DNA from: a virus
Lineage: Duplodnaviria; Heunggongvirae; Uroviricota; Caudoviricetes
IMG/VR virus record: IMGVR_UViG_3300042204_000022
Direction: 5' to 3' (one strand)
DNA length: 64,000 nt
The translations under genes and the position numbers were made by a program. The notes beneath the pieces are model-generated. The model did no database searches. It worked only from the letters and a program-made list of their open reading frames with translations, and was not told the DNA's origin. Shown in pieces: positions 20,572-56,568 of this stretch. How positions within the stretch are numbered: the first letter of the stretch is position 1; each line of letters begins with the position of its first letter.

Positions 20572-21627
20572 TTAATCTTTTTTCTTACGCTTGTCCAGCA
20601 CAATATCTGTTCTTTCGTTAGAAAACTTCAGACGGTGGCATATTCCTGTGTTAATTTCACGAGCGATTTTCTTTTGTAGGTCGTACCCGATGTAACCGTA
20701 CTCGTCCCACTTACGAGACGCTGGCATTGACACATGCTCTAACCACTTCTTCCACCTAACATCTACACTGTCTTCTGGTGAGAAGATAGGATTAGCGTGT
20801 AGTTGCTCCATATCAAAGGTGTAGTGACGCTTCGACCACTCGTTGCCAGCAACTTTGTTCTGGTTAATCATAAACGAAAGCTCAGGGATCATAAACTTCA
20901 GAACTCCGAACTCCTCTAGTAAGGCGATACCAGTGTTGTGGTACTCGCCCATGAGAAGTTTGTCAATTTCCTGCACCCAACGCTCCTTTGAAACGTCAAG
21001 AATGCGATCTGCGAGCTGACGAGACTTACCAGTGAAATTAGGGTCAATATTGAAACCGTAGCGTGCGGCAAAGCGGGCAGCACGAAGAATACGAAGTGGG
21101 TCTTCTTGAATGCGGTCTTTAGGCATACCGACAGTCTTAATCTGCTTTGCGTAGATGTCGAGCTTACCGCCATAAGGGTCATAGATAGAACCGTCAGAGC
21201 GTAGAACCATTGCGTTCATCGTGAAGTCACGACGAGCAAGGTCTTCGTCAAGAGAAGTTACAAATGCTACCTCTGGCTTACGAGACTTAGAGGTGTAAAC
21301 TTCTGAGCGGAAGGTGGTTACTTCAACGTATTCGTACTTAAATACAGCATCAGAGAACCCGTATCCGTCATCGCCTATCATCTCAAGCTTGTCTTGAATC
21401 GGCACCTTAAAACCGATAGTACCAAACTTCTCACCGATAGTGTAGACACGACGACCCGCAGCCTTGACCTTCTCTGTCATTTCATCGGGCAGTAGAGAGG
21501 TGGTGAAATCGTAGTCTTTAGGTGTGTTACCCATTACGAGGTCACGAACAGAACCACCGACAAGATAAACATCTTCGGTGCCTAAAATTTTCTGTACTTC
21601 TTTTTGTATGTATAGTGCTTTTTCCAT
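20572..21627 (-). CDS. tRNA nucleotidyltransferase (CCA-adding enzyme / poly(A) polymerase family)
   Basis: GGSVRDL...DYDF nucleotidyltransferase head motif, RRDFTMNA, LRILRAARFAA; start set at MEKALYIQ. Confidence 0.75.
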   Translation of the reverse strand: MEKALYIQKEVQKILGTEDVYLVGGSVRDLVMGNTPKDYDFTTSLLPDEMTEKVKAAGRRVYTIGEKFGTIGFKVPIQDKLEMIGDDGYGFSDAVFKYEYVEVTTFRSEVYTSKSRKPEVAFVTSLDEDLARRDFTMNAMVLRSDGSIYDPYGGKLDIYAKQIKTVGMPKDRIQEDPLRILRAARFAARYGFNIDPNFTGKSRQLADRILDVSKERWVQEIDKLLMGEYHNTGIALLEEFGVLKFMIPELSFMINQNKVAGNEWSKRHYTFDMEQLHANPIFSPEDSVDVRWKKWLEHVSMPASRKWDEYGYIGYDLQKKIAREINTGICHRLKFSNERTDIVLDKRKKKD

Positions 21628-21896
21628 TATTCTATTTCCTCTAGGGTTGAAATGTCGATTTCGTGCATCTCCATCTCGATACGCATTCCCCAATCAGCCC
21701 AACCGTTTTCAATGATGTAATGTTTTGTGTGTTCTTTTACGAATTGATCGTGTTCTTCTTGTGTGCTTATCGGGTAGGGCTGAGCAGATAAATGCTTTAC
21801 ATAATACCCTTTGACTTCACGAGTTCTATAGCCAACAAATGGGTCGGGCGTTTCTGGGGGCAGTGTTGTAGCCTTATACCTTTTTGGCTCAGTCAT
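21627..21896 (-). CDS. hypothetical protein
   Basis: ORF. Confidence 0.4.
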   Translation of the reverse strand: MTEPKRYKATTLPPETPDPFVGYRTREVKGYYVKHLSAQPYPISTQEEHDQFVKEHTKHYIIENGWADWGMRIEMEMHEIDISTLEEIE

Positions 21897-25265: not shown

Positions 25266-26180
25266 CTAAAATTCGTAACGAACATCACCCCTCTGTAGGA
25301 CGTTGATTCCATAGTAGTCTCTCAGGTGATTTGCTACACGAGGACGGTCATCAATCCAGAATAGGATGTTATACTTCCCGCGAATATGCTCTTCGATGAA
25401 CTCACCTTTAACGATAGCGTCGTTGCGGTTGTCGTTCTCTGCACGCATCACGAGCTTGTCGTATTCGATGTCGTTTTTCTCTAACCATGCCTCAGTTTCT
25501 GGGCGACATACTGCGTCACGTCCTGAGAAGATAAATAGCTCTACGTCATCTATGCCACGTTTGCCGTGTATAAACTGCACCCCGTCTAATAAGGCTGCAA
25601 CACCGAGGTTAATTTCGTCATTACCAACTTTATGCCATTCATAAGGCGAACGGTTTTTTGGACCGTTTGTGAGACTGCCGTCTAGGTCGCTTACTACCAA
25701 CCATTTGAGGCTTGGGTCGTAGCTAAGAAATGTTGGCAGCGTCTTAACGCTTTCATGAAACATTCTGCGGATAACTTGTTCGCCAACACTGTCTTCACGG
25801 TTCTTATCACGTTCAATCACCTCTGCGAGTGGTACATCTAAGAAACTTTCGATGACCACCTCAGCACCAAATTCTTTTGCGATATTTGTGATTCTGGTGA
25901 CGTGTTTTTGCACAAGGTTTGTGTCTGAAGAGACTACGCTTTTACCTTGTGAAAGTGCTTGCTGAATAAGACGGTCACGTTCTTTGATAACGATTGACTC
26001 ATCGCCACGTTTGTGACTGTACGCACCGTCCTTAAACAGGCGACCATCTTTGCGGATTTCATCTTTTTCTACACGTACACGATTCTCTTTATCTTCTGAT
26101 ACCCATTGACGGGCGAACGTAGTTTTACCAGAAGCCGGTAGACCCCTAGTAATTACTACGGTTAATTTACTATTCTTCAT
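25266..26180 (-). CDS. polynucleotide 5'-kinase / 3'-phosphatase (Pnkp, T4 PseT-like)
   Basis: N-terminal P-loop GLPASGKTTFA; C-terminal HAD phosphatase DLDGSL...FWIDDRP. Confidence 0.75.
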   Translation of the reverse strand: MKNSKLTVVITRGLPASGKTTFARQWVSEDKENRVRVEKDEIRKDGRLFKDGAYSHKRGDESIVIKERDRLIQQALSQGKSVVSSDTNLVQKHVTRITNIAKEFGAEVVIESFLDVPLAEVIERDKNREDSVGEQVIRRMFHESVKTLPTFLSYDPSLKWLVVSDLDGSLTNGPKNRSPYEWHKVGNDEINLGVAALLDGVQFIHGKRGIDDVELFIFSGRDAVCRPETEAWLEKNDIEYDKLVMRAENDNRNDAIVKGEFIEEHIRGKYNILFWIDDRPRVANHLRDYYGINVLQRGDVRYEF

Positions 26181-26412
26181 TTTGATTTTCTCCACGAAGG
26201 GCTACGAGTGTGGTGTCTCTTTTTCTAAGTATAGTATCTACGGTAACTCCGTAAGCGCCTTCAAGTACCTCTGATGCGAGGTTCATTCTTTTTTCTATTT
26301 CTGTAGCTTTTTCGCCAAGCTTTAGTATATGATCTACGATTCCTTCTGGACCCATAGATTCGAGTAGTTCAACTTCTGACAATCCGGGCAATGATTCTTG
26401 GCGTTCTATCAT
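26170..26412 (-). CDS. hypothetical protein
   Basis: ORF. Confidence 0.35.
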   Translation of the reverse strand: MIERQESLPGLSEVELLESMGPEGIVDHILKLGEKATEIEKRMNLASEVLEGAYGVTVDTILRKRDTTLVALRGENQNEE

Positions 26413-27680
26413 TCTACTTTACCTTCCTCTTCCATATCTAGTGCTTCTTCGTCCATCATCTTGCTTTCGTGAGCAAAAAATAGAGGACTCTTCAGCTTAG
26501 CAATATATGGGGCTAGACCTTCGATGCGAATACACACGCCTTCGTCACAAGGGCTTTCCTTGTCTAGCGGTACAGCATTAGCGTAACCACCATGTAGTGT
26601 ATCATGATAATTCGTATCTAACCACTCTTCAGGGTTAAAGTCTTGGTGCTTACCACGCCATAGTTCTGGCACGTGCTTCAAGCCACGATCGCGAGTCCAC
26701 TCTTTGAGCTGATCCCAGCTAAGGTCAGTCATAATACCCTGACCGTTGATCTGTGCGACACGGTAAACGTAGAAGTCGTTTGTCATGTGAGGCACACGGT
26801 AGGTATAGTTCTTCTGAATTGGTACACCATCTGGTGTCCATCCGATTAGCTCGCCATAAACGACGAAGTTTTCAGGAACGAGGTCGTCGTACTTCTTCGC
26901 TGCTTCAGTCCAGATGTCGTGTTCATAGAAGTGCATCTGACGTTCGTTATTCGCATCCTTAATAACACGGTTTGAACCGTACACGTGGTCGTATTCAGTT
27001 TTCTGCACACGTACACCAAGCTTAGATGCGACCTTCTCAACGACAGATAGTTTGCGTGCTACGGGAATGTTAGAGAAACGAAGCAGGGTACCGTGAAGCT
27101 TCTGAGTCACGATGATTTCTGTGTATGGCTTGAACGTATCGAGAACACGGTAGTACTGTGATGTGTCATAGTGACGAGGGAAGAGTTTTTCGTCTACACG
27201 AGTGAACACCTTGTGCTTGTTATTTTCGTGAGCTGGTGTTGATTTGCGCTTGACTTCATACTTCTTACAGATTTCGAAGCCATTCAATTCTTCAAATACG
27301 TCACCGACCTTAAGTTCGCTCAGGTCTACCTTAGTGTAGGCGAGAGATGAAAGTGGCATGAACAACGCATCAGAGCGGTTGCCGCGAAGCTTAATAGCCT
27401 TAACACGACGGTTGTCTTCGATGAATCCAGTCTTGTCTTTGTCTTCGTTAAACTCGTGATGACGAAACAGGTTGTTCTTAGCAGTGTACTCATCGCTAAG
27501 CTGCGTTCCCGCTACGAATACGACACCGACAGTGCCAATCTCAGTTTCCTTAGAAACTACCGCCTGCATACCCAGCAGTGGTGCACCAAGAAGATTGTCA
27601 CTGTTTTCAAGTGGGTTGAGAGCACTAATCTTTACGATCTGTGCTGCATAGTTTATGTTTTCAGGTTCTTTTAGTTTCAC
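26409..27680 (-). CDS. ATP-dependent RNA ligase (Rnl2-like motifs; N-terminal extension + C-terminal nucleotidyltransferase domain, DraRnl/Rnl5-like architecture)
   Basis: motif I TQKLHGT (KxHGT), motif III-like VYGELIGW, motif IV EGVCIRIEG, C-terminal K-rich; NTase domain located in C-terminal half. Confidence 0.65.
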   Translation of the reverse strand: MKLKEPENINYAAQIVKISALNPLENSDNLLGAPLLGMQAVVSKETEIGTVGVVFVAGTQLSDEYTAKNNLFRHHEFNEDKDKTGFIEDNRRVKAIKLRGNRSDALFMPLSSLAYTKVDLSELKVGDVFEELNGFEICKKYEVKRKSTPAHENNKHKVFTRVDEKLFPRHYDTSQYYRVLDTFKPYTEIIVTQKLHGTLLRFSNIPVARKLSVVEKVASKLGVRVQKTEYDHVYGSNRVIKDANNERQMHFYEHDIWTEAAKKYDDLVPENFVVYGELIGWTPDGVPIQKNYTYRVPHMTNDFYVYRVAQINGQGIMTDLSWDQLKEWTRDRGLKHVPELWRGKHQDFNPEEWLDTNYHDTLHGGYANAVPLDKESPCDEGVCIRIEGLAPYIAKLKSPLFFAHESKMMDEEALDMEEEGKVE

Positions 27681-34236: not shown

Positions 34237-35133
34237 TCAAGACTTTTTCCTAATTTTCACACTTTCCTTGAGGATTTTAGGGGCGACGTGCTTCCACTTG
34301 ACTGTATGATGAACCCTGAACGCATCCGTATTCACCCTATCGCCCCTGTTATGAAGAACTCCGATCTTAACACCAGAAGGGTGGCTCATAACCGAGTAGA
34401 AGGATTTAACATACGTGCCAAACTTTTTGTACATATCGGTGTTACCGCTATTGTTACTTTGGGTTTGCTTCTGGTTGATTGCGATGAATCCTGTCGTCAA
34501 GAAGAGCACGCCTCTACTGGATAGGGTGGTGTATGCAACAACATCGTCGTTCATTGTGCCCGAAAAGTCGAATGGTCTCTCGGTATCGATAATCCATGAA
34601 TTCATGCCTTTTCTTCTATACTGATCGACCGCCATTTTTGATTGACCGCCCCCAATATAGTCGCCTGACTGAGCCATGCAGATGGACTGAAGTCTTGGTG
34701 TTGATTTTAGGTAATCAAGCATTATTTCGAACACTTTGTCAAGTGCATTATTGTCTTCAGCGAGCATTTTTGAAGAATATTCGATCTGAGGATTCATTCT
34801 CCACCTAACTGAGTCGTAATCGTCTTCAAACTCAGCGAAATACCTGTAGCCAAGACCCTGTGCAATGTCAATACACGCTTGACGAGCGTAAACGATTGAT
34901 TTATGAAAGTTGAAGTTGTCCATAGAGTCGGTTAACCCCATGTAGGTCTTCTTGTTGAATACGACAATCTTGTCTTCGCCGAAAATCTCTTTATAGCGGT
35001 CTATAGTGGGGTCTAAATCATCAAGTACGATGTACCAATCCCCCGTATAGCCAAACCTTTTAAGAGTATTGACAGTAAATACGTTATCTGGTCTGCCATG
35101 AGACAAAATTAGAACACAAAAATTACTCTTCAC
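34237..35133 (-). CDS. putative nucleotide-sugar transferase (GT-A-like)
   Basis: ILSHGRPDN...LDDLD pattern; weak. Confidence 0.3.
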   Translation of the reverse strand: MKSNFCVLILSHGRPDNVFTVNTLKRFGYTGDWYIVLDDLDPTIDRYKEIFGEDKIVVFNKKTYMGLTDSMDNFNFHKSIVYARQACIDIAQGLGYRYFAEFEDDYDSVRWRMNPQIEYSSKMLAEDNNALDKVFEIMLDYLKSTPRLQSICMAQSGDYIGGGQSKMAVDQYRRKGMNSWIIDTERPFDFSGTMNDDVVAYTTLSSRGVLFLTTGFIAINQKQTQSNNSGNTDMYKKFGTYVKSFYSVMSHPSGVKIGVLHNRGDRVNTDAFRVHHTVKWKHVAPKILKESVKIRKKS

Positions 35134-40058: not shown

Positions 40059-41501
40059 ATGAGCTTTTTAGACGAATTGCAAAAGAATACAAACAAGAAC
40101 ACTCGCACACTCAATGGTGCGGTAACTAACGATAGTACCCTAGATGCTAATCTAGACTACTTCTCACTCGCAGGAGCGATGCGTAATCGTGTAAACGATA
40201 CACGCCGCCTTTTCGCTAAGGCTTTCGCAGCCGACCCGCAGACAGCTTTGCGTACACTATTCTATCTACGTGACATTCGTGGTGGTCAGGGTGAGCGTGA
40301 AGTCTTTCGTGCTGGTCTTCAGGAGCTAGAAGATATTTCGCCAGAAACCGCTAACTTGGTAATCCAAAACAACTGGATCGGTGAGTATGGCCGTTACGAT
40401 GATCTATTATCATTCCGCAACGGCGAAACACTCGGCGCTCTTGCAGAATTCATTCGTCACCAGCTCGATGCCGACACTGACGCTATGGCTGATGGTGATC
40501 CAGTATCGTTGCTTGCTAAGTGGCTACCTTCAGAAAACGCATCAAGCAAGACTACTCGTGGTCAGGCTGTTGCACTAGCTAAGTTGCTTGGCTTGAAGCC
40601 AAGTCAGTACCGCCGTAAGATCGTTGCTCTTCGTAAGTACATCAAGTTGCTTGAACAGCAGATGTCTAAGAACGAATGGTCTGAAATTGACTACTCTAAG
40701 ATTCCTTCACAGGCTGGTCGCAAGCACGTTAAGGCGTTTATGCGTCATGACGAAGAACGCTACCGTGACTTCTTGAGCAAGGTAGAAAAGGGTGAAGCTA
40801 AGATCAATACAAGCACTCTATACACATACGAAGTGTTTGACATGGTTCGCAGTGGTCACGACCAAGCTGCAAACGCAATGTGGGCTAACCTACCAGATTA
40901 CACAAACGGTACAGACGCACTTGTTCTCGCCGACGTATCTGGTTCAATGAGCGGTCGTCCTATGAGCGTATCAGTATCACTTGCCCTTTACTTCGCAGAA
41001 CGTAACAAGGGTGTGTTCAGTAACAAGTTTATGACCTTCAGCGAACGCCCAGCGGTTGTAGATGTAGTTGGTAACTCTCTCACAGATAAGCTTCGTTTCA
41101 TCGAAAGCCGTGACTGGGGTATGAGCACCAACCTTGAAGCTGCATTTGACGCTATTCTGTCAGCAGCCGTAGCATCTGGTCAGGGTCAAGACGGTATGCC
41201 TAAGACTCTATATGTCATCTCAGACATGGAGTTCAATCAGGCTGTATCAAACCCAAGCGAAAGCATCTTCGACAACGCACAGCGTAAGTTCAAAGAAAAG
41301 GGTCTTGAGCTACCACACGTAGTGTTCTGGAACGTCAACTCATGGCAAGACCAAGCACCAGCGACAAAATTTGACAATCGTGTTACACTTATCTCAGGTT
41401 CGAGTCAGAGCACATTCCAGCACGCCGTGAACGGCAAGACACCAATCGAGCTCATGCTAGATGTAGTGAACAGCGAACGCTACGCACAAATCGTACTTTA
41501 A
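40059..41501 (+). CDS. vWA-domain protein with N-terminal helical domain (DUF2828/TROVE-Ro60-like architecture)
   Basis: MIDAS motif LVLADVSGSMSG; ~280-aa N-terminal domain; immediately followed by tRNA-like ncRNA array. Confidence 0.55.
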   Translation: MSFLDELQKNTNKNTRTLNGAVTNDSTLDANLDYFSLAGAMRNRVNDTRRLFAKAFAADPQTALRTLFYLRDIRGGQGEREVFRAGLQELEDISPETANLVIQNNWIGEYGRYDDLLSFRNGETLGALAEFIRHQLDADTDAMADGDPVSLLAKWLPSENASSKTTRGQAVALAKLLGLKPSQYRRKIVALRKYIKLLEQQMSKNEWSEIDYSKIPSQAGRKHVKAFMRHDEERYRDFLSKVEKGEAKINTSTLYTYEVFDMVRSGHDQAANAMWANLPDYTNGTDALVLADVSGSMSGRPMSVSVSLALYFAERNKGVFSNKFMTFSERPAVVDVVGNSLTDKLRFIESRDWGMSTNLEAAFDAILSAAVASGQGQDGMPKTLYVISDMEFNQAVSNPSESIFDNAQRKFKEKGLELPHVVFWNVNSWQDQAPATKFDNRVTLISGSSQSTFQHAVNGKTPIELMLDVVNSERYAQIVL

Positions 41502-45627: not shown

Positions 45628-45702
45628 TGGCTCAGAGACTAGGGCTCGAACCTAGATAACAACCTTCAAAGGGTTGCGTCCTACCAGTTAGACGATCTCT
45701 GA
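45628..45702 (-). tRNA. tRNA-Gln(TTG)
   Basis: manual cloverleaf: acceptor TCAGAGA/TCTCTGA, T-loop GGTTCGAGCCC, anticodon loop CTTTGAA, CCA encoded. Confidence 0.7.
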
Positions 45703-45705
45703 TTA

Positions 45706-45793
45706 TGGCGGAAGACGTAGGACACGAACCCAACGCCCTTGCGAACGCACATATCTTAGCAGGATAGTCTAGCACCTCGCTAGTTCATCTTCC
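45706..45793 (-). tRNA. tRNA-Ser(GCT), type II
   Basis: 88 nt, long variable arm, anticodon loop CTGCTAA; T-loop with T58. Confidence 0.55.
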
Positions 45794-45797
45794 ATCT

Positions 45798-45871
45798 TGG
45801 CTGCCTCGCGTGGATTCGAACCACAATTAACTGATTCAGAGTCAGTCGTCCTACCATTAGACGACAAGGCA
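45798..45871 (-). tRNA. tRNA-Gln(CTG)
   Basis: anticodon loop ACTCTGA, T-loop GGTTCGAATCC. Confidence 0.65.
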
Positions 45872-45878
45872 ATAATTA

Positions 45879-45953
45879 TGGGGTGTCAGACGAGTCCCGA
45901 CATCGCAACTCCAACGTCACAGGTTGGTATGATTCCTTTTCACTACCGACACC
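45879..45953 (-). tRNA. tRNA-His(GTG)-like with G-1/C73 and aberrant T arm
   Basis: G-1 + GTGTCGG/CTGACAC acceptor, anticodon loop CTGTGAC; T arm non-canonical. Confidence 0.35.
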
Positions 45954-45961
45954 ATATTGTT

Positions 45962-46050
45962 TGGCGGAAGGCTGAAGTGTCGATCTCCAAGAGGTTGCCC
46001 CCTCCAACTGTTTTCAAGACAGTGCCCAGAGCCGTCTGGGATAACCTTCC
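45962..46050 (-). tRNA. tRNA-Ser(TGA)-like, type II, non-canonical T-loop ATCGACA
   Basis: acceptor GGAAGGT/GCCTTCC, anticodon stem ACTGT/ACAGT loop CTTGAAA. Confidence 0.4.
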
Positions 46051-46056
46051 TTATTT

Positions 46057-46139
46057 GGTCGCCCTACTAGGATTCGAACCTAGAGTCAATTAAGACAGCG
46101 GGTTTAAGCCGCCTGCGTGAACCTTTTCGCCATAGAGCG
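46057..46139 (-). tRNA. tRNA-Leu(TAA), type II
   Basis: anticodon loop CTTAAAC, T-loop GGTTCGAATCC. Confidence 0.6.
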
Positions 46140-46145
46140 ATATTC

Positions 46146-46231
46146 TGGTGCCGAAGGAGAGACTCGAACTCTCACGCCCTCACGGGCACTGGTTTCTAAA
46201 ACCAGCGTGTCTACCATTCCACCACTTCGGC
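46146..46231 (-). tRNA. tRNA-Leu(TAG), type II
   Basis: anticodon loop TTTAGAA, variable arm GCCCGTGAGGGCG. Confidence 0.6.
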
Positions 46232-46244
46232 ATAAATTGTTAAT

Positions 46245-46330
46245 TGGTACGTCTAGCTAGATTCGAACTAGCACACCCTTTCGGGCAACAGGGTTTGAGC
46301 CTGCCGTGTCTACCGTTCCACCATAGACGC
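46245..46330 (-). tRNA. tRNA-Leu(CAA), type II
   Basis: anticodon loop CTCAAAC. Confidence 0.6.
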
Positions 46331-46335
46331 TTATC

Positions 46336-46410
46336 TGGAGCACCCAACCGGAATCGAACCGATGTATTCCGCTTTGCAGGCGGTCGCCTAGGCCACTCGG
46401 CCATAGGTGC
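46336..46410 (-). tRNA. tRNA-Cys(GCA)
   Basis: anticodon loop CTGCAAA, T-loop GGTTCGATTCC. Confidence 0.65.
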
Positions 46411-46417
46411 ATAATTT

Positions 46418-46493
46418 TGGTGGCACCGGTTGGACTTGAACCAACGACCCCTCCCTTTTCAGGGGAGTGCTCTACCAGCTGAGCTACAGTGCC
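46418..46493 (-). tRNA. tRNA-Phe(GAA)
   Basis: anticodon loop CTGAAAA, D arm GCTCAGCTGGTAGAGC. Confidence 0.7.
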
Positions 46494-46496
46494 ACA

Positions 46497-46571
46497 TGGT
46501 CAGAGTTCTGGGAGTCGAACCCAGCATATCCCGCGTCCAAGGCGGGCATCACACCCCGCAATCTAACTCTG
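46497..46571 (-). tRNA. tRNA-Pro(TGG)
   Basis: anticodon stem CCCGC/GCGGG loop CTTGGAC. Confidence 0.55.
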
Positions 46572-46577
46572 ATAATA

Positions 46578-46654
46578 TGGTCAGGATAGGAAGTGCTGCC
46601 CTCCCCGCCTCTGAGTCCCAAACCCAGCGCTCTGCTAACATGAGCTATATCCTG
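46578..46654 (-). tRNA. tRNA-Pro(TGG)-like with non-canonical T-loop GGCAGCA
   Basis: good acceptor/D/anticodon arms (loop TTTGGGA) but T-loop lacks TTC. Confidence 0.4.
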
Positions 46655-46657
46655 ATA

Positions 46658-46731
46658 TGGCTCCTCCGACTGGACTCGAACCAGTAATAACTCCTTAACA
46701 GGGAGACGTGTTACCATTACACTACAGAGGA
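46658..46731 (-). tRNA. tRNA-Asn(GTT)
   Basis: anticodon loop CTGTTAA. Confidence 0.65.
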
Positions 46732-46745
46732 ATAAATTGTTAATT

Positions 46746-46821
46746 TGGCGGAGAAGACGGGATTCGAACCCGCGATCTCTCCCGTGACAGGGGAGTGTGT
46801 TAACCGCTACACCACATCTCC
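46746..46821 (-). tRNA. tRNA-Asp(GTC)
   Basis: anticodon loop CTGTCAC, T-loop GGTTCGAATCC. Confidence 0.65.
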
Positions 46822-46826
46822 AAATT

Positions 46827-46900
46827 TGGCAGGCCCCAAAAGATTTGAACTCTTACTAAGGGGTTTGGAATCCCTTGTGCTGCCATTACACTAGAGGCCT
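46827..46900 (-). tRNA. tRNA-Trp(CCA)
   Basis: anticodon loop TTCCAAA, T-loop AGTTCAAATCT. Confidence 0.6.
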
Positions 46901-47404
46901 AAAAGTGCTTAGTTTTGTTGATTTGTACTAAGCTTCACCGATTGGCGCTACCTGTCGCCATCAAATCGGGAACAAAATCCGGCAAGACCTTTCATCGGTA
47001 GCCTTGCATGAGCCTGACACTATGCTGTTTTCGCTTATTCAACACATAGCCGCGAACGTACTCGCAGAGGGCAGCGAAGCCCTATCGTACAACCAATATT
47101 CGTGGTTCAGTCTTTCAGCTAGACACGACGCATAGCTAGCTATAGCACTATACGCCTCTCAATTGGCTATCACCACTTATAGTATATGACCACGCGCCTC
47201 CCACAGTCGTGTTGGTTTCCCTCATACTCCTCTCTTTCGAGTGCTACCCTCATCACCGTGTTTTCGAGCTTTCGCATGTTCACAGCATGTTAGGGTAACT
47301 TTTAGCCTTGTCCGTCATTCTAATTGTTAAAGTAAAAGCACCAACCTTTGTGGGATTGGTGCCTTATATGTTTGTTTTACTTTGCTCTAACTATAGAGAA
47401 AACA

Positions 47405-47478
47405 TTAGACACCAATACCAAACTGATCTGGGCAATTCCAGAGCAATGAGGGCTGTAGATGACTAAATAAGTTACTCA
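47405..47478 (-). CDS. tiny leaderless ORF (24 aa) downstream of tRNA-array promoter
   Basis: ATG 7 nt after TATAAT; MSNLFSHLQPSLLWNCPDQFGIGV. Confidence 0.25.
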
Positions 47479-47479
47479 T

Positions 47480-47514
47480 ATCTCTATTATAGCACACATA
47501 AATATAAACGCAAG
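47480..47514 (-). promoter_or_regulatory. sigma70-like promoter with extended -10 (TTGCGT-N16-TGTGCTATAAT) feeding minus-strand tRNA array 1
   Basis: near-identical to promoter at 56720-56755. Confidence 0.55.
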
Positions 47515-47635
47515 CACTTTTTATAAAAATAAACAAAAACACCCCACTCGAATGGGGTGACAACCACTGCGTTATACCTGATACGGCGGTCAAGGCAACC
47601 GTCCTTCCCGTAACGAGGTGTGTGATTCTTCGTTA

Positions 47636-47671
47636 CTTCTTATTATAGGCGGTCAAAATGCTTATGTCAAT
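47636..47671 (-). promoter_or_regulatory. sigma70-like promoter (TTGACATAAGC-N-TATAAT)
   Basis: minus-strand TTGACATAAGCATTTTGACCGCCTATAAT. Confidence 0.5.
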
Positions 47672-47814
47672 AGTCTGGGGGAGGGTTTTCGGCGAAAAAC
47701 ATTTGTTACCCTCTAATTTGTGTGGTCTTACATCAGAATTGATGAACGAATTCTACCCATCAAATCAACTACCTACCGATACGCTTATGTTATCAAATTA
47801 AATCTATATGTCAA

Positions 47815-47901
47815 TGGTACCAGCTGGAGGATTCGAACCTTCCGAAGCCCGAAGGCGAGTGATTTACAGTCACTATGCTTTGACCGCTTGCATAAACTGG
47901 C
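47815..47901 (-). tRNA. tRNA-Tyr(GTA), long variable arm
   Basis: anticodon loop CTGTAAA, T-loop GGTTCGAATCC, CCA encoded. Confidence 0.6.
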
Positions 47902-47904
47902 TTA

Positions 47905-47979
47905 TGGTGACCCTAGCGGGATTCGAACCCGCGATCCGGGAGTGAAAGTCCCGTGACTTAACCGCTTGTCCATAGGGCC
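47905..47979 (-). tRNA. tRNA-Glu(TTC)
   Basis: anticodon loop CTTTCAC, T-loop GGGTTCGAATCCCGC. Confidence 0.65.
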
Positions 47980-49491: not shown

Positions 49492-49995
49492 ATGAGCAAT
49501 TACATTTTCGTAGACGTAGAAGCACGCGGGTCATCACCAGTAAACGGTACGATGACAGAATTTGGTGCAGTACATGGAACAAGCAAAGAAACATATCACG
49601 GTGTACTATTTGAGGGTTCACCAGACCCAGAAAACCCGGCTATTCCCGTAGTAGGTAAGCGTCTTCTATCAGACAAAGAGGTCGCTGAAGACTTTCTTAA
49701 CTGGTTGAGGCATGTTTGTAAGAATGACCGTCCCGTATTCGTGAGCGACAACGTAGCTTACGACTGGATGTGGATTGCTGGTATGTTTGATCGTGCAGGT
49801 ATCGATAACCCATTTGGTCATTCTGGTCGTCGCATTTCTGACTTTTGGGCTGGTCTTCAACATAATTTCGGCGAAACACAGTCGTGGAAGCGTTTTCGTA
49901 AGACTAAGCACGACCATAACCCTGTAAACGACGCTATGGGCAACGTAGAAGCATTCGAAGAGATTAAGAAGATAGCAAAGGAGTTAAGAAAATGA
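49492..49995 (+). CDS. DEDDh 3'-5' exonuclease (DnaQ-like)
   Basis: FVDVEARG (DxE), SDNVAYDWMW (D), HNPVNDAMG (H..D). Confidence 0.6.
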   Translation: MSNYIFVDVEARGSSPVNGTMTEFGAVHGTSKETYHGVLFEGSPDPENPAIPVVGKRLLSDKEVAEDFLNWLRHVCKNDRPVFVSDNVAYDWMWIAGMFDRAGIDNPFGHSGRRISDFWAGLQHNFGETQSWKRFRKTKHDHNPVNDAMGNVEAFEEIKKIAKELRK

Positions 49996-55024: not shown

Positions 55025-55153
55025 ATATTTTCTCTCCGATTATTTGTTTTATATGCAGCATCTACCGTGCTTGTTTTGAACTGTGTTTTTTGTAAGGTTC
55101 TATACTCATTATAGCAAATTAAAAGACCCATCTCTGGGTCTGGGATTTTTCTA

Positions 55154-55229
55154 TGGAGGGCTCGGTGGGGATCGAACCCACGACTTTTCGGTTAAGAGCC
55201 GAATGCTCTGCCAGCTGAGCTACAAGCCC
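55154..55229 (-). tRNA. tRNA-Lys(CTT)
   Basis: anticodon loop CTCTTAA, T-loop GGGTTCGATCCCC. Confidence 0.65.
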
Positions 55230-55237
55230 ATAGTTTT

Positions 55238-55314
55238 TGGTGGAGTGACGGGGAGTCGAACCCCGCTCAGTCTGCTTGCAAAGCAGTCTCGCCTACCTCG
55301 GAACATGTCACCCC
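55238..55314 (-). tRNA. tRNA-Ala(TGC)
   Basis: anticodon loop TTTGCAA, T-loop GGTTCGACTCC. Confidence 0.65.
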
Positions 55315-55319
55315 GTGTA

Positions 55320-55396
55320 TGGTGCAGAGTCAGGGATTCGAACCCCGAACCTTCACGTTCGTAGCGTGATGCTCTATCCAGTTGAGCTAACCCTGC
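55320..55396 (-). tRNA. tRNA-Arg(ACG)
   Basis: anticodon loop CTACGAA, D arm GCTCAACTGGATAGAGC. Confidence 0.65.
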
Positions 55397-55399
55397 TTA

Positions 55400-55474
55400 T
55401 GGTTGCGGGCCAGGGAGTTGAACCCTGCTCTTAGGCTTATGAGACCTACCAGTTCACCGGAACTGTAACCCGCA
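55400..55474 (-). tRNA. tRNA-Met(CAT) (elongator/initiator/Ile2 not distinguished)
   Basis: anticodon loop CTCATAA, T-loop GGTTCAACTCC. Confidence 0.6.
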
Positions 55475-55500
55475 TTATGGGTACACTATTGCTACAATCA

Positions 55501-55571
55501 ACTCTTGGTTGGATTCGAACCAACGACCTACGGGTTTTCGACCCGTTGCTCTACCGCTGAGCTACAAATTC
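55501..55571 (-). pseudogene. chimeric tRNA-like element with non-complementary acceptor strands
   Basis: good D arm, anticodon arm (loop TCGAAAA, C33) and T arm GTTGGTTCGAATCCAAC but 5' GAATTTG vs 3' CAAGAGT do not pair. Confidence 0.4.
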
Positions 55572-55635
55572 TGACATAGTGTACGGTTCTGTAAAAGTAG
55601 GCGTGCACACCTACATGAACATACGAATTGTTAAA

Positions 55636-55712
55636 TGGTGGCTCCTCAAGGACTCGAACCTTGAACTTCTGGTATGTAACACCAGCGCTCTAACCAATTG
55701 AGCTAAGGAGCC
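55636..55712 (-). tRNA. tRNA-Val(TAC)
   Basis: anticodon loop GTTACAT, T-loop GGTTCGAGTCC. Confidence 0.6.
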
Positions 55713-55726
55713 ATGAGTTGTTATTT

Positions 55727-55800
55727 TGGTCGGCGTAGAAGGTAACGCTCCTTCGTCAACCGCGTATAAGACGGTCGCTCTACTTTTGAGCTATACGCCA
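55727..55800 (-). tRNA. tRNA-Ile(TAT)-like with non-canonical T-loop AGCGTTA
   Basis: acceptor TGGCGTA/TACGCCG, anticodon loop CTTATAC. Confidence 0.35.
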
Positions 55801-55804
55801 TTAT

Positions 55805-55880
55805 TGGTACCGCCGGAAGGATTTGAACCCTCACCGCCGACGTTAGAACCGTCGTGTGCTATCCATTACACTACAGCGGT
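55805..55880 (-). tRNA. tRNA-Arg(TCT)
   Basis: anticodon stem CGACG/CGTCG loop GTTCTAA, T-loop GGTTCAAATCC. Confidence 0.65.
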
Positions 55881-56216
55881 ATATCTTTGATAGGTTCTCT
55901 CTGCATGACAGTTCGCACAGACAACCTCACATTTCGCAATCTCATCAAGTATTCTTTTTTCTGAGTACCCCTTCTTGTGAGCTTTGCCTAGATCGAATAG
56001 CTTATCTTCATCACTCACGTGGTCATATTGCATGACATAAGGAGGGTACTGTATACCACAGTCTACACAAGGTTTCTGCTTATACGACCTGATTAGGTCA
56101 AGCAGTTTCTTCTTACGTGCGTCTGCCCTATCGATGTAATATTGCTTGTTGTTTTTGTAATGTTCACGAATATACTTTGCCATATATTCTTTTCTATTTT
56201 TGTGTTCTAAGGTCAT
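55866..56216 (-). CDS. HNH endonuclease inserted in tRNA array
   Basis: CVDCG...YDHVSDE...CANCH; 3' end overlaps 5' end of tRNA-Arg(TCT) by ~13 nt. Confidence 0.65.
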   Translation of the reverse strand: MTLEHKNRKEYMAKYIREHYKNNKQYYIDRADARKKKLLDLIRSYKQKPCVDCGIQYPPYVMQYDHVSDEDKLFDLGKAHKKGYSEKRILDEIAKCEVVCANCHAERTYQRYTAVV

Positions 56217-56245
56217 AATATAATTATAACACTTATGCTTTTGGT

Positions 56246-56323
56246 CGTGCTTCAGGGATTCGAACCCTGACCGTCTGGTTGGAAGCCAGAAATGCTAATC
56301 CATTGAACACCAAAGCACGGTCT
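56246..56323 (-). tRNA. tRNA-Gly(TCC)
   Basis: anticodon loop CTTCCAA, perfect acceptor CGTGCTT/AAGCACG. Confidence 0.6.
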
Positions 56324-56327
56324 TGGA

Positions 56328-56403
56328 GCCGCCTTCCGGAATCGAACCGGAAACCTGATGCTTACAAAGCAACTGCTCTACCAATTGAGCTAAGGCGGCG
56401 TAT
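56328..56403 (-). tRNA. tRNA-Thr(TGT)
   Basis: anticodon loop TTTGTAA, D arm GCTCAATTGGTAGAGC. Confidence 0.6.
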
Positions 56404-56406
56404 GGT

Positions 56407-56481
56407 TGGCGATGGAGGTGCTGCCCCTCCGACCTCTTGAGTATCAGACAAGTGCTCTACTGCTGAGCTAATCGCCAAAAT
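56407..56481 (-). tRNA. tRNA-Ile(GAT) with non-canonical T-loop GGCAGCA
   Basis: perfect acceptor TGGCGAT/ATCGCCA, anticodon loop CTGATAC; T-loop identical to that of 46578-46654. Confidence 0.45.
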
Positions 56482-56492
56482 GTTAATGTGGT

Positions 56493-56568
56493 GGGCTCGG
56501 TCGGAGTCGAACCGACGATCGTTCGCTTAAAAGGCGAGTGCTTGACCAAACTAGCTTCGAGCCCTTAA
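56493..56568 (-). tRNA. tRNA-Lys(TTT)
   Basis: anticodon loop CTTTTAA, T-loop GGTTCGACTCC. Confidence 0.55.

What the first reader, a model, noticed from the sequence alone, without database searches (positions are those of the whole stretch)
46578..46654. tRNAs with intact stems but non-canonical T-loops (GGCAGCA twice, ATCGACA, AGCGTTA)
- At least four genes have good acceptor, D and anticodon arms but T-loops lacking the universal T54-Psi55-C56: 46578-46654, 56407-56481, 45962-46050 and 55727-55800.
- Two unrelated isoacceptors (Pro-like and Ile-GAT) share the identical 17-nt T arm GGGAG-GGCAGCA-CTTCC.
- That argues for a functional, possibly recombined or engineered variant rather than random decay.
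- These could be decoys or nuclease-resistant tRNAs, or they may need phage-specific processing.
Basis: seen in the sequence. Interest (0 to 1): 0.55.

Follow-up and report, generated by a model that had tools for sequence, protein, structure and literature searches.

The report
Phage tRNAs with an alternative elbow
Several transfer-RNA genes of this phage are intact but replace the supposedly universal contact between their two outer loops with a matching alternative pair; this design is widespread in phages and some bacteria, is largely missed by one standard tRNA finder, and may protect the tRNAs from enzymes that cut the standard loop.

Summary
The four loci are real minus-strand tRNA genes in a phage that carries about 28 tRNAs: Pro-UGG (46578-46654), Ile-GAU (56403-56477), Ile-UAU (55727-55800) and Ser-UGA (45962-46050). 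I found a fifth, His-GUG (45879-45953, GUCGGGA).

The "identical 17-nt T arm" is wrong: the stems differ at 3 positions. C56 is kept everywhere.

The D-loop has A18-G19 and the T-loop has N54-G55-C56-R57.

Across 1,350 unique tRNAs not selected by my search patterns (about 240 loci):
- G18/U55 occurs 907 times and A18/G55 249 times.
- Mixed combinations occur only 27 times.
- 54:58 switches among U:A, G:G and A:U, and 19:56 between G:C and A:U.

The same elbows sit on about 40 anticodons in phage contigs, a cultured Erythrobacter phage, a Nostoc plasmid array and apparently chromosomal Melainabacteria tRNAs. Complete 23-26-gene phage arrays use them. ARAGORN finds only 7% of the GGCAGCA type.

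Best reading: these are functional tRNAs with a co-adapted, GNRA-like alternative elbow that lacks the UUC motif. A benefit from resisting T-loop nucleases (Schlafen/Cash) is plausible but untested. I found no description of this in the searched literature.

The parts
46578..46654 (-). tRNA-Pro(UGG) copy 2 with the alternative elbow. D-loop is AUGUUAGCA (A18-G19); T arm is GGGAG-GGCAGCA-CUUCC (G54 G55 C56 A57 G58); C1:G72, A73 and CCA are encoded.
   Evidence: Rfam RF00005 36.1 bits. Found by my structure-only parser. The MFE fold is a cloverleaf. Missed by ARAGORN. Closest homologue is L111 Pro-UGG, 80% identical with the same acceptor stem.
46497..46571 (-). Canonical tRNA-Pro(UGG) copy 1 (D-loop with GG, T-loop UUCGACU). 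It lies 6 nt from copy 2 and serves as a natural matched control.
   Evidence: ARAGORN, Rfam 37.3 bits, parser.
56403..56477 (-). tRNA-Ile(GAU) with the alternative elbow. D-loop is AGCAGUA (A18-G19); T arm is GGAGG-GGCAGCA-CCUCC; A73 and CCA are encoded.
   Evidence: Rfam 51.2 bits. The model alignment puts AGCAGUA under AaUGGUA and GGCAGCA under UUCgAaU. Parser; cloverleaf MFE; missed by ARAGORN.
55727..55800 (-). tRNA-Ile(UAU) with the second alternative elbow. D-loop is AAAAGUA (A18-G19); variable loop is 4 nt (UGAC); T arm is GAAGG-AGCGUUA-CCUUC (A54 G55 C56 G57 U58).
   Evidence: ARAGORN, Rfam 50.9 bits with alignment, textbook cloverleaf MFE with z -2.43. The same D-loop/T-loop pair occurs on 62 viral contigs.
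45962..46050 (-). Class II tRNA-Ser(UGA) with a mild variant. G18-G19 are present; the T-loop AUCGACA has A54 and A58 with U55, C56 and G57 kept.
   Evidence: Parser and MFE cloverleaf with a long variable arm. Its best Rfam hit is the tRNA-Sec model at 45.5 bits, below that family's 47; the anticodon is UGA, not UCA. Missed by ARAGORN.
45879..45953 (-). tRNA-His(GUG) with encoded G-1. The D-loop AAAGGAA has G18-G19. The T-loop is GUCGGGA (G54 U55 C56 G57 G58), and the U53-C61 pair is mismatched.
   Evidence: Seen by reading the gap. Rfam 35.0 bits when the search space is small. Syntenic with a His gene in relative L001.
45628..47979 (-). tRNA cluster 1, in transcription order: Glu, Tyr ... 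Trp, Asp, Asn, Pro2, Pro, Phe, Cys, three Leu, Ser-UGA, His, Gln-CUG, candidate Ser-GCU, Gln-UUG.
   Evidence: A perfect sigma-70-like promoter match lies at 47642-47670 on the minus strand.
55154..56564 (-). tRNA cluster 2, in transcription order: Lys-UUU, Ile-GAU, Thr, Gly, [HNH gene], Arg-UCU, Ile-UAU, Val, [tRNA-like element], Met, Arg-ACG, Ala, Lys-CUU.
   Evidence: A terminator-like hairpin lies at 55124-55141 on the minus strand, just after the last gene. The HNH endonuclease is at 55866-56216.
25266..27680 (-). Context: a T4-type tRNA repair pair. Polynucleotide kinase-phosphatase is at 25266-26195 and RNA ligase at 26409-27680.
   Evidence: Pfam HAD_PNKP plus AAA_33, and RNA_ligase; PHROG RNA ligase.
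20572..21693 (-). Context: phage-encoded tRNA nucleotidyltransferase (CCA-adding enzyme).
   Evidence: PHROG 2244 at E 5.5e-61; Pfam PolyA_pol plus PolyA_pol_RNAbd.

Best explanation
These are genuine, working elongator tRNA genes of a phage, built on an alternative version of the tRNA elbow.

How the elbow differs (shown from sequence):
- In ordinary tRNAs, G18 of the D-loop contacts Psi55, G19 pairs with C56, and U54 pairs with A58 (reverse Hoogsteen).
- Here the G18:U55 contact is replaced by A18:G55.
- The 54:58 pair is replaced by G:G (GGCAGCA) or A:U (AGCGUUA).
- G19:C56 and purine 57 are kept. These form the outer stacking face read by the ribosome, RNase P and other elbow readers.

Structural reading (inferred): G55-C56-R57 plus A18 is equivalent to a GNRA turn whose closing A is supplied in trans by the D-loop, so the L-shape is preserved. 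The tRNAs would then be charged by the host IleRS and ProRS and decode normally. Ser-UGA (A54:A58) and His-GUG (G54:G58) carry only the 54:58 part of the change.

Consequence: the TPsiC/UUC motif is gone. The tRNAs cannot be substrates of TrmA (T54), TruB (Psi55) or TrmH (Gm18), and they lack the sequence that T-loop-cutting nucleases recognise.

Why they are kept: my leading guess, at about one in three, is resistance to T-loop-directed antiviral tRNases. A near-neutral alternative fold that spreads by gene transfer is about equally likely.

Shown: gene integrity, covariation and wide recurrence. Inferred: the 3D geometry, charging, and any selective benefit.
For: 1. Integrity. Stems are 7/4/5/5 bp, with U33, R37, a discriminator and encoded CCA. 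MFE folds are cloverleaves. Rfam tRNA scores run 35-51 bits against a gathering score of 29.

2. D-loop/T-loop covariation.
- In the window, 21 of 21 U55 tRNAs have GG and 3 of 3 G55 tRNAs have AG.
- Among 1,350 unique tRNAs not selected by my patterns: G18/U55 907, A18/G55 249, G18/G55 20, A18/U55 7. The A18/G55 set covers 40 anticodons and 80 loci.
- In a gap-free set with 7-nt D-loops, mutual information peaks sharply at 18x55 (0.80-0.93 bit) and 19x56.
- 54x58 counts are U:A 245, G:G 26 and A:U 21.
- Position 57 is a purine in 372 of 372 G55 tRNAs.

3. A search constrained only on the T arm returned D-loops reading CAG or TAG in 116 of 119 unique GGCAGCA tRNAs.

4. Stem compensation. RNAalifold on 22 Pro and Ile GGCAGCA tRNAs finds compensatory changes in 18 of 20 pairs.

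5. Use in cells and phages.
- Melainabacteria Pro-UGG and Tyr-GUA carry the elbow in a conserved tRNA cluster.
- Phage contig L045 (terminase, endolysin) has 23 of 23 tRNAs with G55.
- The cultured Erythrobacter phage vB_EliS-L02 has a Val-GAC of this type.
- The Nostoc pCC7120delta array has an Ile-GAU of this type.

6. The two Ile tRNAs are the phage's only Ile tRNAs.

7. Structural rationale. GNRA tetraloops superpose on the D/T-loop motif, with their G.A pair in place of U55-G18 (PMC10484739). Elbow anatomy is from PMC4810234.

8. Nuclease idea. CbCash cuts T-loops at UUC, and single U54 or U55 mutations abolish cutting (PMC13462974). The phage also carries PNKP, an RNA ligase and a CCA-adding enzyme, the classic answer to tRNA cleavage.
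Against: - There are no expression, charging or structural data for any of these tRNAs.
- The covariation counts are not corrected for shared ancestry, and the loci were fetched because they contain at least one variant tRNA.
- The A18:G55 geometry is inferred by analogy, not modelled.
- Only 5 of about 28 tRNAs in the window lack U54-U55. That would give only partial protection against a broad T-loop nuclease.
- The same elbow in apparently chromosomal tRNAs of Melainabacteria and Levyibacteriota shows it needs no phage context. This weakens the defence-evasion reading.
- The host and its defence systems are unknown.
Confidence: 0.75

Rival explanations
1. Near-neutral alternative. The A18:G55 elbow is another stable solution of the same fold. 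It arises or is transferred now and then and persists without any special advantage. The phage simply inherited or picked up such genes.
For: - The same elbow occurs in apparently chromosomal bacterial tRNAs: Melainabacteria Pro and Tyr, and Levyibacteriota His.
- The elbow type differs between orthologous tRNAs of the window and its relative L001. Ile-UAU is alternative here and canonical there; Phe and Leu-CAA are the reverse. The tRNAs themselves are only 55-78% identical.
- Only a minority of the window's tRNAs are affected.
Against: - Phage contigs and arrays exist in which every one of 8-26 tRNAs has G55. That is hard to reach by drift.
- Exact heptamers (GGCAGCA, AGCGTTA) recur on 12-22 different anticodons, which suggests a sharply selected state.
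- The window keeps a canonical and a variant Pro-UGG side by side.
Confidence: 0.35
2. Decoys or sponges. The variant tRNAs are not used in translation but bind and titrate a host tRNA-directed defence protein or nuclease.
For: Phage-encoded tRNAs are known to neutralise tRNA-targeting defence systems (titles and abstracts listed, for example PMC11464382 on PARIS). The duplicated Pro-UGG could fit a spare, non-translating copy.
Against: - A decoy for a nuclease that reads UUC should keep UUC, not lose it.
- Anticodon loops, discriminator bases and CCA are fully conserved.
- The Ile variants are the only Ile tRNAs of the phage.
- The same design serves as what appears to be the chromosomal Pro and Tyr tRNA in some bacteria.
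Confidence: 0.05
3. Decaying pseudogenes that happen to keep their stems.
For: Rfam scores are lower than for neighbouring tRNAs. A truly degenerate tRNA-like element exists nearby at 55505-55567.
Against: - All stems are intact and CCA is kept.
- The changes are confined to positions that touch each other in 3D and covary across hundreds of sequences.
- 18 of 20 stem pairs show compensatory changes.
Confidence: 0.03
4. Dependence on phage-specific enzymes. The variants need the phage's own CCA-adding enzyme, repair enzymes or an unknown modification enzyme to mature.
For: The phage encodes a CCA-adding enzyme, PNKP and an RNA ligase. CCA-adding enzymes are among the factors that read the tRNA elbow (my recollection of the literature; the passages of PMC4810234 read do not mention them).
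Against: CCA is already encoded. G19:C56, the face that elbow readers stack on, is retained. Identical elbows occur in bacterial and plasmid tRNA clusters; their flanks were not screened for such enzymes.
Confidence: 0.05
5. Artefact of misplaced stem boundaries. With correct boundaries the loops would be canonical.
Against: Three independent methods give the same boundaries and loops: the Infernal alignment to RF00005, a structure-only parser and thermodynamic folding.
Confidence: 0.01

Closest known systems
Canonical bacterial and phage elongator tRNAs (Rfam RF00005)
   Same: Same cloverleaf and arm sizes, 7-nt T-loop and anticodon loop, U33 and R37, G19:C56, purine 57, encoded CCA, and clustering in phage tRNA arrays.
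   Different: G18:Psi55 is replaced by A18:G55. U54:A58 is replaced by G:G or A:U. There is no TPsiC motif, so no T54, Psi55 or Gm18 is possible.
tRNAPyl (Methanosarcina, Desulfitobacterium)
   Same: A natural, functional tRNA outside organelles that lacks both G18G19 and T54-Psi55-C56 (PMC1851642; PMC7609411).
   Different: tRNAPyl has a 5-nt D-loop, one connector nucleotide, a 6-bp anticodon stem, a 3-nt variable loop, no G19:C56, and a dedicated synthetase. The window tRNAs have standard dimensions, keep G19:C56 and carry ordinary sense anticodons.
Mammalian mitochondrial type II tRNAs
   Same: The G18G19 and TPsiC motifs are not conserved (PMC7609411).
   Different: In mitochondrial tRNAs the D/T-loop interaction is lost and loop sizes vary. 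Here loop sizes are canonical, and strict covariation shows the loops still interact.
GNRA tetraloop and the T-loop motif family
   Same: G55-C56-R57 plus A18 has the composition of a GNRA turn. GNRA loops superpose on the D/T-loop motif, with their G.A pair where U55-G18 sits (PMC10484739).
   Different: Here the closing A would come in trans from another loop. No structure of such a tRNA elbow was found.
Phage tRNAs that escape anticodon nucleases (anticodon-loop variants; T5 tRNALys against PARIS)
   Same: Phage-encoded tRNAs that differ from host tRNAs at the site a defence nuclease recognises (PMC10264068 and PMC11464382).
   Different: Those changes are in the anticodon loop, and that paper does not mention the T-loop. 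Here the change is in the elbow, and resistance is only predicted from the U54/U55 requirement of CbCash.
Long tRNA gene arrays on mobile elements (L-arrays, e.g. Nostoc PCC 7120 pCC7120delta)
   Same: Large mobile tRNA arrays. The Nostoc array contains one Ile-GAU with D-loop GAAAAGUGA and T-loop GGCAGUA (record positions 49836-49907).
   Different: The rest of that array is canonical. The passages I searched in the paper on L-arrays do not discuss tertiary-pair variants (PMC8421152).

Membership tests
tRNA (Rfam RF00005) | Cloverleaf with a 7-bp acceptor stem, 3-4-bp D stem, 5-bp anticodon stem and 5-bp T stem, plus 7-nt anticodon and T loops | tested here: met
   A structure-only parser finds all of them. 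MFE folds are cloverleaves. The Infernal alignments cover the full model, positions 1-71.
tRNA (Rfam RF00005) | Score at or above the curated gathering threshold of 29 bits | tested here: met
   Pro2 36.1, Ile-GAU 51.2, Ile-UAU 50.9 and His 35.0 bits. Ser-UGA is reported only under the clan-mate tRNA-Sec model at 45.5 bits, below that model's 47. It is a class II tRNA with anticodon UGA.
tRNA (Rfam RF00005) | U33, purine 37, discriminator base and a 3' CCA | tested here: met
   All five have these features and encode CCA.
tRNA (functional, translating) | Transcribed, processed, aminoacylated and used on the ribosome | not testable with these tools
   Only indirect evidence exists: promoter-like and terminator-like sites flank the clusters, there is covariation, and the design is used in apparently chromosomal bacterial tRNAs.
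Canonical tRNA elbow | G18-G19 in the D-loop together with U54-U55-C56 and A58 in the T-loop | tested here: not met
   Pro2, Ile-GAU and Ile-UAU have A18 and G55, with G54/G58 or A54/U58. Ser-UGA has A54. His has G54/G58. G19, C56 and R57 are kept in all five.
tRNAPyl-like | 5-nt D-loop, a single connector nucleotide, 6-bp anticodon stem, 3-nt variable loop and CUA anticodon | tested here: not met
   D-loops are 7-9 nt, there are two connector nucleotides, anticodon stems are 5 bp, variable loops are 4-5 nt, and the anticodons are sense anticodons.
Mitochondrial-type tRNA without a D/T-loop interaction | Loss of the interaction, variable loop sizes, and no covariation between the loops | tested here: not met
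   There is strong 18:55 and 19:56 covariation, and the T-loop is a fixed 7 nt.
tRNAProX mistranslating tRNAs | C1:G72 together with A33, A34, G21 and A15:A48, and a non-Pro anticodon (PMC10404621) | tested here: not met
   Pro2 has C1:G72 but also U33, U34, A21 and a normal UGG anticodon.
Nuclease-escape phage tRNA | Demonstrated resistance to a defined host tRNase that cuts the host counterpart | not testable with these tools
   This is only a prediction from the published U54/U55 requirement of CbCash. The host and its defence systems are unknown.
tRNA pseudogene | Broken stems, a lost CCA or discriminator, and uncompensated substitutions | tested here: not met
   Stems are intact and compensatory changes occur across homologues.

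The most novel reading that the evidence does not exclude
The A18:G55 ('split GNRA') elbow, with its G54:G58 or A54:U58 partners, may be a previously undescribed and widespread second architecture of the tRNA elbow. Phages and mobile tRNA arrays would deploy it, up to complete 23-26-gene sets, to keep translating when T-loop-directed nucleases of the Schlafen/Cash type destroy tRNAs that carry the UUC motif. The adjacent canonical and variant Pro-UGG genes in this window would then be a sensitive/resistant pair.
Probability: 0.27. Interest if true: 0.85.

Novelty: new variant of a known kind. Interest (0 to 1): 0.68.

Why it matters
- G18:Psi55 and T54:A58 are taught as near-universal tRNA features. 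A recurrent, co-adapted replacement found on about 40 anticodons would revise that picture. It occurs in phages, a plasmid array and some bacterial lineages.
- It offers a natural set of elbow variants for structural work and for designing orthogonal tRNAs.
- These genes are under-annotated. ARAGORN detects 7% of the GGCAGCA class, and Rfam's filters dropped one gene in a 14-kb search. Phage tRNA repertoires and codon-supply analyses are therefore biased.
- A 2026 study of a T-loop-cutting Schlafen nuclease states that whether phage tRNAs are targeted is an open question. These tRNAs lack exactly the two uridines that enzyme needs, so the question can be tested directly with the paired Pro-UGG genes.

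Tried and rejected
- **GenBank phages.** Megablast of both tRNA clusters gave only short hits to single tRNAs and no relative.
- **Relatives through the adjacent metallophosphoesterase.** I found one syntenic IMG/VR contig (L001). The single metagenome scan added one more relative (L248), but it has no tRNAs near the gene. Turnover of elbow types could therefore be followed in only one pair.
- **Extra tertiary pairs 17:58 (C:G against A:U) and 54:59 (G:C against A:U).** There is an association, but it weakens in the unselected set and cannot be separated from lineage effects. I do not claim it.
- **The count of structure pairs.** Not used for 18:55, because it counts only G-C, A-U and G-U as pairs and would score A:G as broken. 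I used my own contingency and mutual-information tables instead.
- **Flanks of the all-G55 arrays in Verrucomicrobiota and Chthoniobacter MAGs.** They gave no informative Pfam hits, so prophage versus chromosomal origin stays open. A homologous array on L045 is clearly phage-borne.
- **Literature.** Searches for A18/G55, phage T-loop variants, tRNA arrays and Schlafen escape found no description of this covariation. Classic T-loop motif papers were not held.
- **tRNAProX.** Considered for the actinomycete relatives and rejected on its defining features.
- **Ro/Y-RNA idea for the tRNA-like element at 55478-55590.** The candidate protein has no PDB sequence relative. Left open.
Full report
**What is there.** The window is a phage genome segment. 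It encodes:
- a large terminase (10853-12289), a DnaB-like helicase and an endolysin;
- an integrase (62952-63803);
- a T4-style tRNA repair set: PNKP (25266-26195), an RNA ligase (26409-27680) and a CCA-adding enzyme (20572-21693).

It has no close relative among GenBank phages.

Two minus-strand tRNA clusters lie at 45628-47979 and 55154-56564. ARAGORN tRNAs. Rfam adds 46581-46654, 56406-56477, 45966-50 and a truncated tRNA-like hit at 55505-55567. Reading the remaining gaps added two more:
- His-GUG at 45879-45953, at 35 bits once the search space is small;
- a candidate Ser-GCU at 45706-45793, which no tool confirms.

| Locus | Identity | T-loop / T arm |
|---|---|---|
| 46578-46654 | Pro-UGG | GGGAG-GGCAGCA-CTTCC |
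| 56403-56477 | Ile-GAU | GGAGG-GGCAGCA-CCTCC |
| 55727-55800 | Ile-UAU | AGCGTTA |
| 45962-46050 | Ser-UGA | ATCGACA |

All four encode CCA, have U33 and R37, and fold as cloverleaves by energy alone.

Three statements need correction:
- The two GGCAGCA arms are not an identical 17-mer. Their stems differ at three positions.
- C56 and purine 57 are retained in every case, and Ser-UGA deviates only at position 54.
- The D arms are not simply 'good'. The three strongly deviant tRNAs have D-loops AUGUUAGCA, AGCAGUA and AAAAGUA, that is A18-G19 instead of G18-G19.

The Infernal alignment places AGCAGUA and AAAAGUA column for column under the consensus AaUGGUA, and GGCAGCA and AGCGUUA under UUCgAaU. 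Every other tRNA in the window has GG and UUC. His-GUG is a fifth non-UUC case (GUCGGGA: G54 and G58, with U55 and GG kept).

**The change is coordinated.** In canonical tRNA, G18 contacts Psi55, G19 pairs with C56, U54 pairs with A58, and A58-G18-G57-G19-C56 form one stack (PMC4810234). A18 together with G55 in three tRNAs suggested covariation of a tertiary pair, so I looked for relatives.

The one syntenic relative is L001, found through the adjacent metallophosphoesterase at 81% identity. It has the same gene order, but different isoacceptors carry odd elbows:
- Phe-GAA has D-loop AAAAGCCA and T-loop AGCGTTA.
- Leu-CAA has ACAG and TGCGAAT.
- His has TAG and TGCAAGT.
- Ile-GAU has G18-A19 with TTTGAAT (A19:U56).
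- Its Ile-UAU is canonical, although it shares the acceptor and T stems with the window's gene.

**Wider survey.**
- A scan of IMG/VR for the AAAAG...AGCGTTA pair gave 62 contigs. All hits are good tRNAs, mostly Ile-GAU, but also His, Val, Asn, CAU, Thr and Phe.
- A scan constrained only on the D stem and the T arm (GGGCAGCAC), with the D-loop left free, gave 56 viral contigs, of which 53 hold real tRNAs.
- Among 119 unique GGCAGCA tRNAs, the D-loop reads CAG in 110 and TAG in 6.

I then wrote a cloverleaf parser that uses stems only and ran it on the window and loci L001-L240. Results for 1,350 unique tRNAs that my search patterns did not select:

| Combination | Count |
|---|---|
| G18/U55 | 907 |
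| A18/G55 | 249 |
| G18/G55 | 20 |
| A18/U55 | 7 |

The A18/G55 set covers 40 anticodons and 80 loci. Fisher's exact test gives p of about 1e-220, uncorrected for ancestry.

In a gap-free subset with 7-nt D-loops:
- the D-loop by T-loop mutual-information matrix has one sharp peak at 18x55 (0.80-0.93 bit) and a second at 19x56;
- 19:56 is G:C 285, A:U 4 and U:A 4;
- 54:58 is U:A 245, G:G 26 and A:U 21.

Position 57 is a purine in all 372 G55 tRNAs. G55 also occurs with an otherwise normal loop (UGCRANU), so the 18:55 switch is separable from the 54:58 switch.

RNAalifold on 22 Pro and Ile GGCAGCA tRNAs gives the cloverleaf, with compensatory changes in 18 of 20 pairs.

**Where such tRNAs live.**
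- *Phages.* The cultured Erythrobacter phage vB_EliS-L02 has a Val-GAC of this type in a stretch of the record with no annotated features.
- *Whole arrays.* L011, L038 and L045 have 23-26 tRNAs, all G55. L045 also encodes a gpA terminase, an M15 endolysin and an RlaP RNA-repair protein. Homologous all-G55 arrays of 8-22 genes sit in Verrucomicrobiota and Chthoniobacter MAG contigs. Their flanks were uninformative.
- *Plasmids.* The Nostoc PCC 7120 delta-plasmid array has one such Ile-GAU.
- *Apparently chromosomal genes.* Melainabacteria Pro-UGG and Tyr-GUA sit inside a conserved Asp-His-Pro-Tyr-Leu-Gln cluster. Levyibacteriota His-GUG is another case.

So the design is not phage-specific, and it appears to work with ordinary translation machinery.

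**Mechanism.**

*Shown:* intact genes, and loops that covary exactly at the positions that touch in 3D.

*Inferred:*
- G55-C56-R57 with A18 is the GNRA counterpart of the U55-C56-R57 U-turn with G18. A structural survey reports that GNRA tetraloops superpose on the D/T-loop motif, with their closing non-canonical pair in place of U55-G18 (PMC10484739).
- Keeping G19:C56 and R57 preserves the flat outer face used by the ribosomal L1 stalk and L5, RNase P and T-boxes (PMC4810234).
- The 54:58 alternatives (G:G, A:U, A:A, C:A) are combinations that can replace a reverse-Hoogsteen U:A. This agrees with my recollection of in vivo selections by the Steinberg laboratory (from memory; the paper was not retrievable).
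- Ile-UAU and Ile-GAU carry A73, C4:G69 and U12:A23, which I recall as E. coli IleRS identity elements. Pro2 carries C1:G72 and A73 (from memory).

**Why keep such an elbow.** The variants lack the TPsiC motif, so they cannot receive T54, Psi55 or Gm18.

More concretely, a 2026 paper shows that CRISPR-associated Schlafen (CbCash) cuts tRNAs mainly in the T-loop at UUC. The scissile phosphate lies 5' of U55, and single U54 or U55 mutations abolish cutting. Schlafen nucleases are widespread in defence systems, and the authors say it is open whether phage tRNAs are targeted (PMC13462974). All five variant tRNAs of the window lack U54-U55 (GG, GG, AG, AU, GU).

Other points that fit an arms race over tRNA cleavage:
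- all-G55 phage arrays;
- the side-by-side canonical and variant Pro-UGG genes;
- the phage's PNKP, ligase and CCA-enzyme set.

The published anticodon-loop escape hypothesis does not consider T-loops.

Against the escape idea:
- only 5 of about 28 tRNAs here are variant;
- the host is unknown;
- chromosomal bacterial tRNAs use the same elbow.

I put defence evasion at roughly one in three and a near-neutral alternative fold at about the same. Decoys, pseudogenes, phage-specific processing and misassigned stems are each unlikely, for the reasons listed under rivals.

**Comparison with known cases.** These are members of the tRNA family by every structural test, but they fail the canonical-elbow definition.
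- They are not tRNAPyl-like or mitochondrial-like. Dimensions are normal, G19:C56 is kept and the loops clearly interact.
- They are not tRNAProX.
- A review of natural non-canonical tRNAs covers Sec, Pyl and mitochondrial tRNAs, and phages are not mentioned in it.
- Full-text searches for A18/G55 and related terms found no description of this covariation.

Absence from the searchable library is not proof of novelty. I rate it a new variant of a known kind.

**Practical consequence.** ARAGORN recovered 100% of UUC tRNAs in the fetched loci. For the G55 classes it recovered:

| T-loop start | Recovered |
|---|---|
| UGC | 88% |
| AGC | 66% |
| CGC | 33% |
| GGC | 7% |

Rfam's default filters dropped the His gene in a 14-kb search.

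**Limits.**
- The loci were collected because they contain a variant, so frequencies are not population estimates.
- The statistics are not phylogeny-corrected.
- The parser misses tRNAs with imperfect T stems and yields a few false positives.
- No RNA 3D modelling or expression data were available.

Noticed in passing
window 55478-55590 (-), core 55505-55567: A tRNA-like element with normal D, anticodon and T arms (T-loop UUCGAAU, anticodon loop UCGAAAA with C33). It scores 55.4 bits on Rfam tRNA but only over model positions 5-66. Instead of a 7-bp acceptor stem and CCA, it is closed by a long interrupted stem (GTACACTAT...ATAGTGTAC). MFE is -33.9 with z -3.43. It may be a tRNA-derived structured RNA or a pseudogene.
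   Followed up: partly
window 45706-45793 (-): Candidate tRNA-Ser(GCU): acceptor GGAAGAT/GTCTTCC, G73, CCA, anticodon loop CUGCUAA, long variable arm and T-loop UUCGUGU. It has three nucleotides between the acceptor and D stems. It is syntenic with Ser-GCU of relative L001, but neither ARAGORN nor Rfam finds it, even at E<=10.
   Followed up: partly
L122-L237 (28 actinomycete genome loci, e.g. L127:806-952, L225:6889-7114): One to four tandem tRNA-like genes share an almost invariant body (C1:G72, mostly G73, A18/G55 elbow with GGCAGCA or GGCGGAA, mostly no encoded CCA). They carry more than 20 different anticodons between species and paralogues, including UCA (opal). In Streptomyces locus L127 the neighbours are glycosyl hydrolase family 3 and BadF-type ATPase genes, and at least one neighbour ORF family is shared by all 28 loci. 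The family resembles the idea of the tRNAProX mistranslating tRNAs but lacks their defining A33/A34/G21.
   Followed up: partly
L011, L038, L045 (viral); L129, L144, L150, L158, L170, L175, L180, L182, L184, L186, L188, L203, L204, L216 (MAG contigs): Complete tRNA arrays of 8-26 genes in which every tRNA has G55 and nearly all have A18, with many T-loop flavours (UGCRANU, GGCAGCA, AGCGUUA, CGCGAUA, AGCGAAG). L045 is clearly a phage (terminase, endolysin) and has an RlaP RNA-repair gene next to the array.
   Followed up: partly
L065, L068/L075/L090/L106, L098/L099 (viral contigs): GGCAGCA-type tRNAs whose anticodon loops appear to be 9 nt long (CCUAAUGAA, AGUAAUGAC, ACCAUGGAC). These could be frameshift, suppressor or otherwise unusual decoders.
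   Followed up: no
L001:8872-8947, L001:9746-9821 and other loci: A second tertiary-pair switch. D-loops with G18-A19 go with T-loops UUU (A19:U56; 21 'GA' D-loops against 1 'GG' among UUU T-loops). An Ala tRNA with T-loop UUAGAUU may have U19:A56. In the 7-nt D-loop set, 19:56 is A:U 4 times and U:A 4 times.
   Followed up: partly
window 20572-21693, 25266-26195, 26409-27680 (all -): The phage carries a CCA-adding enzyme, a polynucleotide kinase-phosphatase and an RNA ligase. This is the T4-type kit for repairing cleaved tRNAs, and it lies about 18-25 kb from the tRNA clusters.
   Followed up: partly
window 40059-41501 (+): A 480-aa protein with DUF2828, DUF7788 and VWA domains, which PHROGs labels 'RNA-binding protein' (phrog_850, E 4e-149). 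It has no PDB sequence relative. Whether it pairs with the tRNA-like RNA at 55478-55590 in the manner of Ro and Y RNA is pure speculation.
   Followed up: partly
L001:19978-20053: In the relative phage, the tRNA with anticodon UAA (Leu) is only 76 nt long and has a short variable loop. It therefore lacks the long variable arm expected of bacterial tRNA-Leu.
   Followed up: no
window 55866-56216 (-): An HNH endonuclease gene is inserted inside tRNA cluster 2, between Gly-UCC and Arg-UCU. HNH genes also sit next to the Nostoc plasmid tRNA array.
   Followed up: no
window 34237-35133 (-) and L045:11965-13050: A TET-associated glycosyltransferase (TAGT, a DNA hypermodification enzyme) is encoded in the window phage. 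A weak match also occurs in the all-G55-array phage L045.
   Followed up: no
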